DNA from: Eledone cirrhosa
Lineage: Eukaryota
Direction: 5' to 3'
NCBI GenBank assembly: GCA_964016885.1
Contig: OZ024742.1
Span: 85,374,001 to 85,438,000, forward strand
Length of the DNA stretch: 64,000 bases
Below are positions 4,431-54,667 of this stretch, piece after piece (position 1 is the first letter of the stretch; every line of letters begins with the position of its first letter). Below the pieces are notes generated by a model. That model was given only the letters and a program-made list of their open reading frames with translations, did no database searches and had not been told where the DNA came from. Position numbers and translations under genes: made by a program.

Positions 4431-4902
4431 ACACAAGCACAATAACAACAAACACATATAAACACACACTAGTAAACTAAGATAGAATACAATAACCAAT
4501 ACACAGTCACCCAAACAAGAACACACATCAAACACTATACACACACGCAAACGCATGCGCAGAGAAAACAAAAAAAAAAATAAATAAATAACCCGACTAA
4601 ATAAAGATGGCGTAGGTATAGAATACAACGGGAGGAAACATAATAGCACCACTGACGATGTTGCAGATATGCAACGAAAGAACCTTGTTAGACTATATAT
4701 ATATGTGTTTATGTCTATATTGTATCTGTATGTTTGACCGTTGGTCAGTCAATTGTAACATTGAGGACCGAATAAGCAAAAACCAACCAAACAACGAGTG
4801 TGTTCTGTTATTAATTATGGCAATACTATTACACAAATATGACCCTCCCCAAGTATAACAATATTTATTTCGACACACGATTTCATATTAAAAACCTTGC
4901 AA

Positions 4903-5476
<574 letters not shown>

Positions 5477-8255: not shown

Positions 8256-8308
8256 GAGATTCTACAGGACTAGAACTGTTTCATTCTTTAGAAATCATCA
8301 GGAATCTC
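8256..8308 (-). ncRNA. Type I hammerhead ribozyme (intact core)
   Basis: GAGATTC-CTGATGA-t-TTCT-aa-AGAA-t-GAAACAG-ttctagtc-CTGTA-GAATCTC; triplet GUA. Confidence 0.8.
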
Positions 8309-8309
8309 T

Positions 8310-8362
8310 GAGATTCCTGATGATTTCTAAAGAATGAAACAGTTCTAGTCCTGTAGAATTTC
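8310..8362 (+). ncRNA. Type I hammerhead ribozyme (mirror copy)
   Basis: Same fold as 8256-8308, with one GU in stem I. Confidence 0.8.
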
Positions 8363-44926: not shown

Positions 44927-45951
44927 ATAATTGTGTATGACCTCCCGTTTGTATGTTTACTTGTGCGAATGTAACTTGCTTTCAGATGGAATCGGATGAG
45001 CTCCATGACGCGCAGGAAATGAACACTAATTTCGGCTGATACAATTATATTGCTGCCAAGGAAATTGGTCAAATTCGTATTATTACATTTGCCTGTCTGT
45101 GTGATCAACCACCCAAAGAAATATAACAATCGTTTGTTTGTGCAGCCCTTCCAAGTTTAATAAGCATGCAGCTTAATAGATATAATTTCCATTCTCATCT
45201 ATCCCGGGGACTTCTACCTTCAGTTACAATTCACTATAAACAATATGACTAATACAAGACTCGTTTCACGTCATCTCAAATAAAATAATGTTTATTATTA
45301 TATAATATTCACTTTCGTTTTATATTATCATTTATATATTTCATTTCCCTTTTCCGCGTGTTTTACTTGCTCGGCAAATAGGTGAACACCACCTCCACTA
45401 TTTTACCTAAGAAATGCATATTATAAGGCGTTTTGTAAGGCCAATCAATGGTAATTATGTTTGAAAATGTGAACAATATATAAATGTATGTCGACGTTGG
45501 GCAGATTACCAATGATGAGGCTAGTTTACAGTGGGATATTTTATATACACGTATGGCTTTTTACTGTAAATTTCATACAAGTAAACCATTAAATTTGGAG
45601 ATGAATGATGCTAGGGAAATAATTTACAAGAAGGCAATTATTTTAGATCGATCCAATGGATTTACAAATTTTTGAGTGGTACGTAATCCGAAAGAAAAAC
45701 TGAGTATTCTCTAGAGCTGAACAATATTTCAACAAGTCATTTTTAGAATGAAGATATTAATTGGTGATATTTTTTCTTTAAAAATTAGGGTCATGAGTAC
45801 ATTAAAGTAAGTTAACCGATTTCCCACGTTTATTCCACGTTCATTCATAAGACGATAAGGCGCGTACACATCATAAATAGCCCAACCCCCGCAAAAACAC
45901 GTAGGGACACTTGTATATATATATATGTATGTATATATATATATATACATA

Positions 45952-45994
<43 letters not shown>

Positions 45995-46110
45995 GTATAA
46001 ATGTTTCGTATCTCCAGAGAAATACGCTTTTAGGAAGCCATAGCTATGCAAACACCGGGGGGGGGGGGGTCTAACGCCCTCTGGTGATTTCCTGCAGAAG
46101 CAAGGGGGAA

Positions 46111-46154
46111 ACCGTCTATGCATTTCAGGCTTAACTGGCCATCGACAGGACCGT
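46111..46154 (-). ncRNA. Minimal type I HHR, one core mutation
   Basis: ACGGTC-CTGTCGA-t-GGC-cagttaa-GCC-t-GAAAT-GC-ATA-GACGGT. Confidence 0.65.
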
Positions 46155-46432
46155 CCCTCCAACCGCTTGCGACTGCTGGACTAGAAGACAGGCGAGAATA
46201 TATATTTTTCTCGTCTGTGTAAATGAGGTGATTAATTTAATTAGCATATGAAGGTGCATAAGTTGGCTCAACTTATAATAAAAAAGAAACAGGATTTCGC
46301 TTCAAGCATTGCTTTATACAATATGTATAAATATTTCGTATCTTCAAAGAAATACGGTTTTAGGAAGCCGTAGCTATGTAAACACTGGGGGGCTAACGAC
46401 CTCTGGTGATGTCCAGCAGACGCATGGGGAAA

Positions 46433-46476
46433 ACCGTCTATACATTTCAGGCTTAACTGGCCAGCATCAGGACGGT
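46433..46476 (-). ncRNA. Minimal type I HHR, different core mutation
   Basis: ACCGTC-CTGATGC-t-GGC-cagttaa-GCC-t-GAAAT-GT-ATA-GACGGT. Confidence 0.65.
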
Positions 46477-46552
46477 CCCTTCCACCGCTTGCAACTGCTT
46501 GACTAGAAGCATGGCGAGAATATAGAAGTTTCTCGTCTGTGTAAATGAGGTG

Positions 46553-46618
<66 letters not shown>

Positions 46619-46620
<2 letters not shown>

Positions 46621-47768
46621 TTATATAGAGATTACAATAATCAAAGTTCAGTTTAAGTCATTTATTTGCTTACAATTGTTTCCTCCAAACCGAGGTTTGG
46701 ATTCTTCGGAGCAACTATTTACTGATCTATAACATTCTTGACCTCCTTTTCAACCCAAGAGACACATAAAACATATGCGCATATTGATCAACAGTGGGGT
46801 GACACTCATCAAATGATATAGCATGGCAATTTACATGTAAAGGTTACAGGATAAAAATAAAAATAAAAATAAAAGCAAGAATGAAAATAAAGATAAACAT
46901 GAAGCGTTGGCAGTCTATGAAGATAAAGCAAGAGGAAAGCTTAGAGTAGTCAGTGCATGAAACAATCTCACGTGTAGCATGCACGCGTGTCTTATTTATA
47001 CATGATTAGAGTGCGTCAGAATGATATTTGCAGGGTCAGGCAGTTGAAGCAGGCAATCGATCTTATTATGTGGGCTGAATTATTAAGTCATTTATTCTCA
47101 TACATCTGTATGATATACAGTCTCGGATGCATGGAAACACCAAAATATCAGAAACTTTCAACATACTATAAACCTTATTGTATCGTAGGCAAAGCCGTAC
47201 CACTGTCTTCGCTCACACCACCACTCACATAATCCATGAGACGCAATATATAGAACACGTGTCTATCGTATAATTCGCGATGGTTCAGCATATAATCAAG
47301 TTATAAACCGTATCCAGTCGGTTCTTAATTAATAGATCATGCTGTGCAGATTCCGGAAGTGTCTGAATGACTAAGGCGAATTAATGCGTAAGGGGAGGTA
47401 ACTAGCTAGTTATCTTAGTTAAATTACTATGCTAAACTACATTAATGGTGATTCAAATACGTGCCTATCATATGAAGTTATAACTAATTTCTAGAGTATG
47501 TTTCCCAATTATAGGTTAGAGAGTTGTCCATTAAGAAGTACAAGGGTGCATATATTAAGCAAATAAATGACTTAAACTGAACTTTGATTATTGTAATCTC
47601 TATATAACTGCTCTGTAAAACAACTGATGTTATTACATTGAGCTATTTATCTTACTGGTAATAGGATAGTAATTAATGACTATCTTTCACTATTTAAGGT
47701 TTGTATATATAATATATTACCATTAAAGGTTTTATTACATACATAACCATAAATAGTACCCTTAAATC
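46619..47768. mobile_element. Non-coding fold-back element: long minus arm plus forward arm from about 47556
   Basis: 47556-47607 is the reverse complement of 46621-46672; flanked by microsatellite tracts. Confidence 0.8.
46666..46714 (-). ncRNA. Minimal type I HHR, CCGAAGA variant
   Basis: Identical to 15623-15671. Confidence 0.65.
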
Positions 47769-53073: not shown

Positions 53074-54000
53074 CGCTTTTCAAAAGTTGAGTTGAGATGG
53101 AGGGTCTGTGATTTTTCTCACATCTGGTTGGTCTCTGAATGTTACTTGTTTTATGTGGAAAAAGTGGCTCGAAATGCCAGGTTTTTCGAGAAGTAATTTG
53201 ATTGGTTGGTCAATAATTATAATAAATTTCGTGCCAGTTCGCGTTACAAAGTTCTTCAAACAGGGGGGGGGGGGGGGGCTGTCACAGGTTGTTTTTTTCA
53301 TATATGTGTGTTTGAATTTCTTTTTACTTAAAAAAAGGGGGCTCACGAAGGTATTTTTTTTAATAAACGGAATTTGATTGGTTATAAATGAAATAATGGC
53401 TGTCACGTGAACAAGTTTTCATTAAATTTTCGCGCCCTTATTTGGAAATCCATTCTGTAGCCTCTGTAGAGAATTTTATGACAAGTAAAAGATAATGGTC
53501 AAGAGAAATTGGATGGGAGAATTGTTCTGGTTCAGTGAATATGGTTAGTTCGCTGGGGTGTCAGAATTCAGATTTTCTATTGAATAAAGAATGTAAAGAT
53601 ATGTATGTTTATTTGTGTGCTTGTGTGTGTGTGTGTGTGTGTGTGCGTGTGTGTGTGTGTGTGTTGATGTGTGTGAGTTGTGTGTGTTTTAATTTCTTTT
53701 TACTTAAACAAAAGGGGCTCACGAAGGCTTTTTTTTAATAAACGTAATTTGATTGGTTATAAATGAAATAAATTATGGCTGTCACGTGAACAAGTTTTCA
53801 TTAAATTTTCGAGCCCTTATTTGTAAATCTAATCTGTAGCCTTTTTAGAGAATTTTTTGACAAGCAAAAGATAATGGTCAAGAGAAATGGGATGGGAGAA
53901 TTGTTCTGGTTCAGTGAATATGGTTAGTTCGGTGGGATATCAGAATTCAGATTTTCTATTGTAGTAAAGAAAGGAAAGATGTGTATGTTTATTTGTGTGC

Positions 54001-54090
<90 letters not shown>

Positions 54091-54361: not shown

Positions 54362-54667
54362 CCGAATTAGTGTGGTAGAGACGAGTACACATGTTGTTGA
54401 GGTGTATAACTTTGCCAATACTCCGATATACCCAGTTGCTGGTTGGGTAGTTATTTCACCGAGGAACTGGAATCATGAATTCAAACAAACGAATTTCAGC
54501 GTTTTTTTTGTTTTGTTTTTTTTTACGCTGAAATTCATTTGTTTGAATTCATATGGTTCCAGTTCCTCGGTGAAATAACAACCCAACCAGGAACTGGGCA
54601 TATCGGAGTATTGACAAAGTTATACACCTCAACAACATGTGTACTCGTCTCTACCACACTAATCCGG

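What the first reader, a model, noticed from the sequence alone, without database searches (positions are those of the whole stretch)
45992..46555. Retrozyme-like dimer whose two decayed ribozymes complement to an intact HHR
Seen: about 325-bp tandem units, each with a minus-strand HHR. The cores are CTGTCGA and CTGATGC, each with a different single lesion, so the consensus is CTGAYGA with stem I ACCGTC/GACGGT and palindromic ATGCAT stem III. Known: non-LTR retrozymes are tandem units of a few hundred nt with one HHR each and yield circular RNA. Inference: genomic copy of a roughly 325-nt circular RNA.
Basis: partly seen in the sequence, partly recalled or inferred. Interest (0 to 1): 0.75.

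Follow-up and report, generated by a model that had tools for sequence, protein, structure and literature searches.

The report
Decayed retrozyme copy with Penelope footprint
This is one mutated copy of a 323-base non-coding repeat that carries a predicted self-cutting hammerhead RNA and occurs at roughly a thousand sites in an animal genome; the way its copies sit in TA repeats suggests that a Penelope-type jumping-gene enzyme likely pasted them in, but the ribozymes at this site are probably dead and would not rescue each other.

Summary
Real, and a new member of a known kind. Window 45992-46555 (minus strand) is 1.75 units of a ~323-nt repeat set in (TA)n. The family has 1,451 candidate places, 503 exact intact hammerhead cores and compensatory stem changes in a sister family. 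It is a non-LTR retrozyme by structure; cleavage and circles are untested, and no RNA run was listed.

The 'complementation' claim fails. Each copy has three lesions, and both core lesions lie in the same strand, so a double hammerhead would not repair them.

The family bears the Penelope-like-element (PLE) footprint: 146 of 195 arms end at two internal sites about 40 nt apart, and only 2 end at the ribozyme cut. In 36 of 38 scorable two-armed insertions one arm ends at each site. Both arms usually share one haplotype. A coding PLE family follows the same rule (16 of 17), but no homologous parent was found and three fusions to it are not significant. Earlier scan notes report this footprint in other repeat families.

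The parts
45992..46555 (-). Single-armed insertion of the ~323-nt repeat, 1.75 units; 5' end truncated at unit position ~1, 3' end at the tail-less site E1
46234..46555 (-). Unit A (full period), 8.1% diverged from the family majority
45992..46233 (-). Unit B (partial, ends at E1), 5.4% diverged; poly-C run expanded
46433..46476 (-). Hammerhead A: stem I 46476-46471 / 46438-46433, core 46470-46464 with A9>C (46464), 10.1 A>T (46463), stem III C>T (46442), predicted cut after 46439; probably inactive
   Evidence: sequence, family alignment
46111..46154 (-). Hammerhead B: stem I C>G (46152), core 46148-46142 with A6>T (46145), 10.1 A>T (46141), intact ATGCAT, predicted cut after 46117; probably inactive. 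Cut-to-cut distance 322 nt
   Evidence: sequence; majority alleles at 46141, 46145 and 46152 also seen in public contigs
46281..46321 (-). The ~40-nt 'tail' between the family's two preferred 3' ends (E1 ~46322, E2 ~46281); internal here, terminal in about half of the family's arms
46198..46250 (-). Stretch most conserved between the two sister families (octamer-like word, decayed here, then a TATA-like box ~30 nt before stem I); possible internal promoter, not supported by the test against host U1/U2 promoters
45914..45991 (.). (TA)n target tract at the 3' end
46557..46620 (.). (TA)20 then (AG)12 at the 5' end

Best explanation
The stretch is a mutated 1.75-unit copy of a ~323-nt non-coding hammerhead repeat family that sits in TA microsatellites and was likely spread by the enzyme of a Penelope-like element (PLE). 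Proposed cycle. (1) An intact tandem copy is transcribed (inferred). (2) The RNA presents the unit as an endless template, most likely a monomer circle made by hammerhead cleavage and host ligation (inferred from other animals; about 55%), otherwise an uncut multimer. (3) A PLE protein cuts both strands of a (TA)n tract and starts reverse transcription inside the RNA at two fixed sites about 40 nt apart, one for each DNA end (inferred; the two ends and their pairing are shown). (4) Each cDNA runs through the ribozyme for about 0.1-2.7 units (one array of about 10) and stops at a variable point; the 5' ends are joined head to head (structure shown). (5) The inserts then decay (shown). This locus kept only the tail-less arm, and its ribozymes are probably dead.
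For: Family: 1,451 candidates, 40 scored; 503 exact cores; period median 324; no reading frame over 77 codons. Structure: four stem pairs differ on both sides between the family and its sister family. Ends: 146 of 195 arms in 108 loci end at E1 or E2, 119 of these directly in TA; 2 of 195 3' ends and 4 of 195 5' ends lie at the cut site; 169 of 195 arms cross it. Pairing: 36 of 38 scorable head-to-head pairs are E1+E2, p=2.7e-9, including 20 of 20 in the 49 loci fetched afterwards. One template: at 7 marker sites the partner copy shares a minor allele with probability 0.74 (opposite arm), 0.78 (same arm) and 0.20 (other loci); in the new 49 loci 0.67, 0.86 and 0.20. A coding RT+GIY-YIG family shows the same rule, 16 of 17. 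Literature: partial tandems, an inverted 5'-truncated copy and a one-sided 30-40-bp tail are PLE hallmarks (PMC8557442); a purified PLE protein cuts and extends both strands and starts at two internal RNA sites that define the tail (PMC11167929).
Against: No parent was found: a profile of the unit hit no terminal repeat in 123 loci of three coding PLE families, only ordinary unit copies. Fusions to the tested PLE are 2 of about 41 non-canonical junctions, p=0.31; 0 of 60 further PLE loci held the unit; its tail is 60 nt against about 40. Haplotype sharing is incomplete: L015 and L020 carry different haplotypes within one arm, and marker 42 was discordant in 6 of 19 opposite-arm pairs in the new loci, so a single monomer circle is not the template every time. 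36 of the 74 head-to-head pairs had an end outside E1/E2 and could not be scored. Among loci not chosen on the core, core positions are barely better kept than the rest (3.0% vs 3.7%), as expected of dead copies. Samples are biased: 30 loci by best score, most others by an intact core, which inflates 'crosses the cut'.
Confidence: 0.8

Rival explanations
1. Same PLE-driven spread, but the template is an uncut linear multimer transcribed from a tandem master array; circles are absent or a by-product.
For: [quoted passage not shown] An array of about 10 units exists (L064). L015 and L020 are mosaic within an arm. No arm over 2 units among 120 in the chromosome-1 sample.
Against: Successive passes usually share a haplotype (0.78 vs 0.20). 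5' ends show no pile-up at a start site. The L064 variants are mostly private (99 of 138 seen once). Retrozyme circles are abundant in coral, mussel and axolotl (PMC7229834). Cut-to-cut monomers of two natural copies fold stably as circles, z -2.7 and -4.3.
Confidence: 0.35
2. The copies are just 5'-truncated ends (pLTRs) of an unsampled autonomous PLE whose terminal repeat is this unit.
For: The footprint is that of PLEs. In Xenopus, 24 of 57 retrozyme families matched known transposons, 21 of the 22 matched being PLEs (10.64898/2026.07.22.740005). Only three PLE families of this genome were sampled.
Against: Arms run unit into unit, up to about 10 units, without coding sequence in 105 loci. 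5' ends scatter around the whole unit. No homology to three PLE families. The hammerhead is canonical (6-7 bp helix I, 4 bp helix II), unlike the minimal one of the tested PLE.
Confidence: 0.1
3. The two decayed ribozymes at this locus complement each other as a double hammerhead and still release a circle.
For: Palindromic helix III favours dimers (PMC4209133). A U-U pair at the base of stem II is tolerated in an axolotl ribozyme (PMC7229834).
Against: A6 and A9 are conserved core bases (recalled); both lesions are in the CUGANGA strand, which is not exchanged. Further lesions in stems I and III. The locus is among the more diverged copies (5-8% vs median 3.7%).
Confidence: 0.04
4. A minisatellite or fold-back DNA element amplified at the DNA level; shared alleles come from gene conversion.
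For: Inverted arms could convert each other. The 2026 preprint invokes local amplification by unequal crossover.
Against: Dispersed over many chromosomes. Fixed 3' ends, free 5' ends and E1+E2 pairing. The outer ends are not inverted repeats of each other. Most variants are private to one pass.
Confidence: 0.05

Closest known systems
Metazoan non-LTR retrozymes (PMC7229834; passages, Results parts 3-4 of 6 and Discussion read)
   Same: Tandem unit of ~170-400 nt, GC below 50% (43% here), one canonical type I hammerhead per unit, no ORF, no LTR, thousands of copies beside PLEs.
   Different: That paper does not mention inverted copies (0 hits for 'inverted') and names PLEs only as a strong candidate. 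Here the copies show two fixed internal 3' ends and inverted arms; here cleavage and circles are untested.
Retrozymes as non-autonomous PLE derivatives (bioRxiv 10.64898/2026.07.22.740005; parts 1-3 of 5 read, supplements closed)
   Same: Same conclusion: PLE machinery moves retrozymes.
   Different: Its evidence is co-occurrence and pLTR homology in vertebrates; 'tail' has 0 hits and 'inverted' occurs only in a reference. Here the evidence is the insertion footprint, and no homologous pLTR was found.
Endonuclease-bearing Penelope-like elements (PMC8557442 and PMC3846280, passages; PMC11167929, parts 1-2 of 4)
   Same: Partial tandems, head-to-head inverted 5'-truncated copy, one-sided tail, (TA)n targets, reverse transcription from two internal sites, hammerhead not cut in the inserted copy.
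   Different: No RT or endonuclease. In vitro no strand difference in start site was seen, whereas genomic pairs here nearly always use one site each.
Non-autonomous Chlamys elements such as MRC1 (PMC8557442, passage)
   Same: Non-coding PLE passengers with pLTRs and head-to-tail multicopy insertions.
   Different: Green algae, no canonical hammerhead, and generally 3' similarity to an autonomous family.

Membership tests
Type I hammerhead ribozyme | Core CUGANGA...GAAA...UH with three helices | tested here: met
   Family majority and 503 exact copies; not met by the two window copies
Type I hammerhead ribozyme | Covarying helices | tested here: met
   92.8% of cells paired vs 29-56% when slid; 4 pairs changed on both sides between two families, i.e. 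few independent events
Type I hammerhead ribozyme | Match to an Rfam hammerhead model | tested here: not met
   No hit for the window copies at E<=10; intact copies were not scanned
Type I hammerhead ribozyme | Self-cleavage | not testable with these tools
   Needs an assay; in the 2026 preprint 1 of 9 predicted elements cleaved
Non-LTR retrozyme | Tandem units of a few hundred nt, one hammerhead each, low GC | tested here: met
   Period median 324, GC 0.43
Non-LTR retrozyme | Non-coding, no LTR | tested here: met
   Longest open frame 77 codons; not the end of a coding PLE in 105 loci
Non-LTR retrozyme | Expressed as circular RNA | not testable with these tools
   No RNA holder listed
Non-LTR retrozyme | 'Active' copy: complete hammerhead in two consecutive units | tested here: not met
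   Not at this locus; met at others, e.g. L015 and L021
PLE-type insertion | Inverted 5'-truncated copy at the 5' end | tested here: met
   45 of 72 chromosome-1 loci are two-armed; this locus is single-armed
PLE-type insertion | 30-40-bp tail at one end only | tested here: met
   About 40 nt; 36 of 38 scorable pairs
PLE-type insertion | (TA)n target | tested here: met
   119 of 146 E1/E2 ends directly in TA
Autonomous PLE | RT plus GIY-YIG ORF | tested here: not met
   None in the unit; tblastn with one PLE protein found none in the window
Derivative of a PLE pLTR | Homology to the terminal repeat of a coding PLE | tested here: inconclusive
   None in three families, 123 loci; other PLE families not sampled
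snRNA-type promoter (as recalled for newt satellite 2) | Octamer and PSE like the host's U1/U2 genes | tested here: not met
   Best match 12-14 of 18, equal to shuffles; no octamer within 320 nt upstream of host U1/U2

The most novel reading that the evidence does not exclude
A dimeric PLE protein grips one small ribozyme-made RNA circle that has no homology to the PLE, and copies it by rolling-circle reverse transcription from both cut DNA ends at once, using a different fixed start site for each end. The fusions in L008, L050 and L086 would be template switches that name the ~36,000-candidate TA-targeting PLE family as the partner.
Probability: 0.35. Interest if true: 0.7.

Novelty: new member of a known kind. 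Interest (0 to 1): 0.42.

Why it matters
The locus itself is an ordinary dead copy. The family matters moderately. What mobilises animal retrozymes was left as a hypothesis in 2020 and argued from homology in 2026. Here the insertion footprint points to PLE machinery without needing homology. It also adds a rule that the in-vitro PLE system can test directly: one start site per DNA end, on one template. Intact dimers (L015, L021) and open PLE frames in the same genome make a reconstitution feasible.

Tried and rejected
Rfam: no hammerhead hit; the hits are microsatellite hairpins. Folding the window copies alone gave no significant stability (z -0.3, 0.4, -1.2); the whole element gave z -2.7. 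A recalled Pfam accession was not in the library. RNA evidence: no RNA holder listed; the four runs laid were contigs of unknown kind from one study and only confirmed the majority alleles. snRNA-type promoter: no better than shuffles, and I found no held paper that I could use for the recalled newt promoter (listings only). L1-type twin priming: rejected, because the 5' end of one arm does not abut the 3' end of the other in unit coordinates. A suspected PLE body at C1:175.35 Mb proved to be two separate insertions. PLE partner: 3 of the first 29 PLE loci held the unit, but two were separate insertions in shared TA-rich sites, and 0 of the next 60 did. The low core mutation rate was an artefact of choosing loci by their core (redone). 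A short word shared by the 3' ends of the unit and two PLE families is not significant. Target-site duplications cannot be read in (TA)n. Rows dropped: duplicate fetches of the same place; six complex loci (L008, L060-L064) were left out of the haplotype test.

Full report
Observation. The minus strand of 45992-46555 holds one full unit (46555-46234) and a partial second one (46233-45992). They are 81% identical, spaced 322-330 bp, between (TA)n tracts. Each has a type I hammerhead outline. Rfam does not score them.

Family. The unit has 1,451 first-look candidates in the 3.0-Gb genome; 40 were scored and 30 fetched. In 70 of 74 hammerhead hits aligned, the majority is intact: CTGACGA, stem I ACCGTC/GACGGT, stem II AGGC/GCCT, ATGCAT, cut after A. 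That core occurs 503 times exactly, control 0. Median divergence from the majority is 3.7%; the window copies are at 8.1% and 5.4%. A sister family with 3,867 candidates has changed both sides of one stem I pair and three stem II pairs. These are inherited once, so they are few independent events, but they are what selection on a fold leaves. Public contigs from one study show the same majority alleles at the window's lesions.

Complementation. Each window ribozyme has three lesions. The two core lesions, A9>C and A6>T, both lie in CUGANGA. In the dimeric fold helix III forms between copies (PMC4209133, passages), which exchanges the cleavage strand, not this one. Both composite sites stay damaged; that these bases are needed is recalled knowledge. 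The shared A>T at 10.1 was likely in the template: it occurs in 7 of 70 copies and in both passes at all three loci where it could be compared.

Insertion footprint. I mapped 195 arms in 108 loci: 105 chosen for the unit and 3 found through a PLE. Of these, 75 end at unit position 228-247 (E1), 71 at 268-285 (E2), 2 at the ribozyme cut and 47 elsewhere; 119 of the 146 E1/E2 ends run directly into TA. 5' ends scatter over the unit. 169 of 195 arms cross the cut site, a figure inflated by choosing most loci on an intact core. In the chromosome-1 sample 45 of 72 loci have two arms joined head to head, 44 of 120 arms exceed one unit and none exceeds two. Of 74 head-to-head pairs, 38 have both ends at E1 or E2, and 36 of those are one of each (p=2.7e-9); all 20 scorable pairs in the 49 loci fetched later obeyed. 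This is the tail described for PLEs (PMC8557442; PMC3846280). In vitro the tail lies between two internal start sites of a PLE reverse transcriptase that cuts and extends both strands (PMC11167929).

Template. At seven polymorphic sites in 101 loci, a copy with the minor allele has a partner with it in 74% of opposite-arm, 78% of same-arm and 20% of between-locus comparisons; this repeated in the new loci (67%, 86%, 20%). One locus carries a private change in all three passes on both arms (L013). So one insertion is usually copied from one sequence. Against a strict monomer circle: L015 and L020 are mosaic within an arm, and site 42 replicated weakly. Gene conversion and same-time templates are not excluded. 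A cut linear monomer is excluded; circle versus uncut multimer is open, and I put the circle at about 55%.

Partner. A TA-targeting coding family with RT and C-terminal GIY-YIG (36,412 candidates) follows the same E1+E2 rule in 16 of 17 pairs, with a 60-nt tail and a different hammerhead. It is fused seamlessly to the unit three times: in the same direction in L008 and L050, head to head in L086. This is suggestive only. The family covers up to 2.7% of flanking DNA, so 2 of about 41 junctions gives p=0.31, and 0 of 60 further loci held the unit. A profile of the unit found no related terminal repeat in 123 loci of three PLE families.

Mechanism. Shown: repeat structure, intact family fold, fixed 3' ends, pairing rule, shared haplotype, decay here. 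Inferred: transcription, cleavage, ligation, and action of a PLE protein in trans. No RNA run was listed. An snRNA-type promoter was tested and not supported.

Comparison. It meets the sequence features of animal non-LTR retrozymes (PMC7229834). A PLE origin of that class is argued in a 2026 preprint. In eight searches of the held library I found no paper that describes tails or paired inverted arms for retrozymes. Most subscription papers are not held, and I did not see the supplements of these papers, which may bear on this. Earlier notes of this scan describe the same footprint in other families of this and other genomes; I read them after my counts were made and did not test them. None matched this sequence.

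Verdict. Real; a dead copy of a new retrozyme family; complementation rejected; the family-level footprint is a useful, testable link to PLE machinery. Interest 0.42.

Noticed in passing
window 46614-46672 and 47556-47614: 59-nt inverted repeats, 95% complementary, 883 nt apart, directly beside the element; likely a MITE or DNA transposon
   Followed up: no
window 4652-4700 (+) and 4836-4905: Another hammerhead-like motif, with a nearby 70-nt piece 80% like the tail of the coding PLE family
   Followed up: no
window 53305-54068: Two tandem copies of a 379-nt unit, 91% alike; no hammerhead seen in my simple scan
   Followed up: no
window 8266-8352 and 54413-54617: Long near-perfect palindrome and long hairpin; the Rfam miRNA hits are far below cut-off
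   Followed up: no
L150-L179: Sister retrozyme family, ~342-nt period, about 80% like this one, 3,867 candidates, similar tandem and inverted layout
   Followed up: partly
L149:2440-7450 and L144:839-2440: Partial-tandem copy of the coding PLE family, and a 534-codon open RT+GIY-YIG frame
   Followed up: partly
L064:2631-5935: Array of about 10 units whose variants are mostly private, as if made in one event
   Followed up: partly
L240-L269, about -60 to -25: Host U1 and U2 genes share a short word near -58 and a TATA-like box near -30, and lack an octamer within 320 nt
   Followed up: partly
L066, L070, L073, L079, L083, L084, L094: Several further unrelated hammerhead-like motifs near TA tracts
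   Followed up: no
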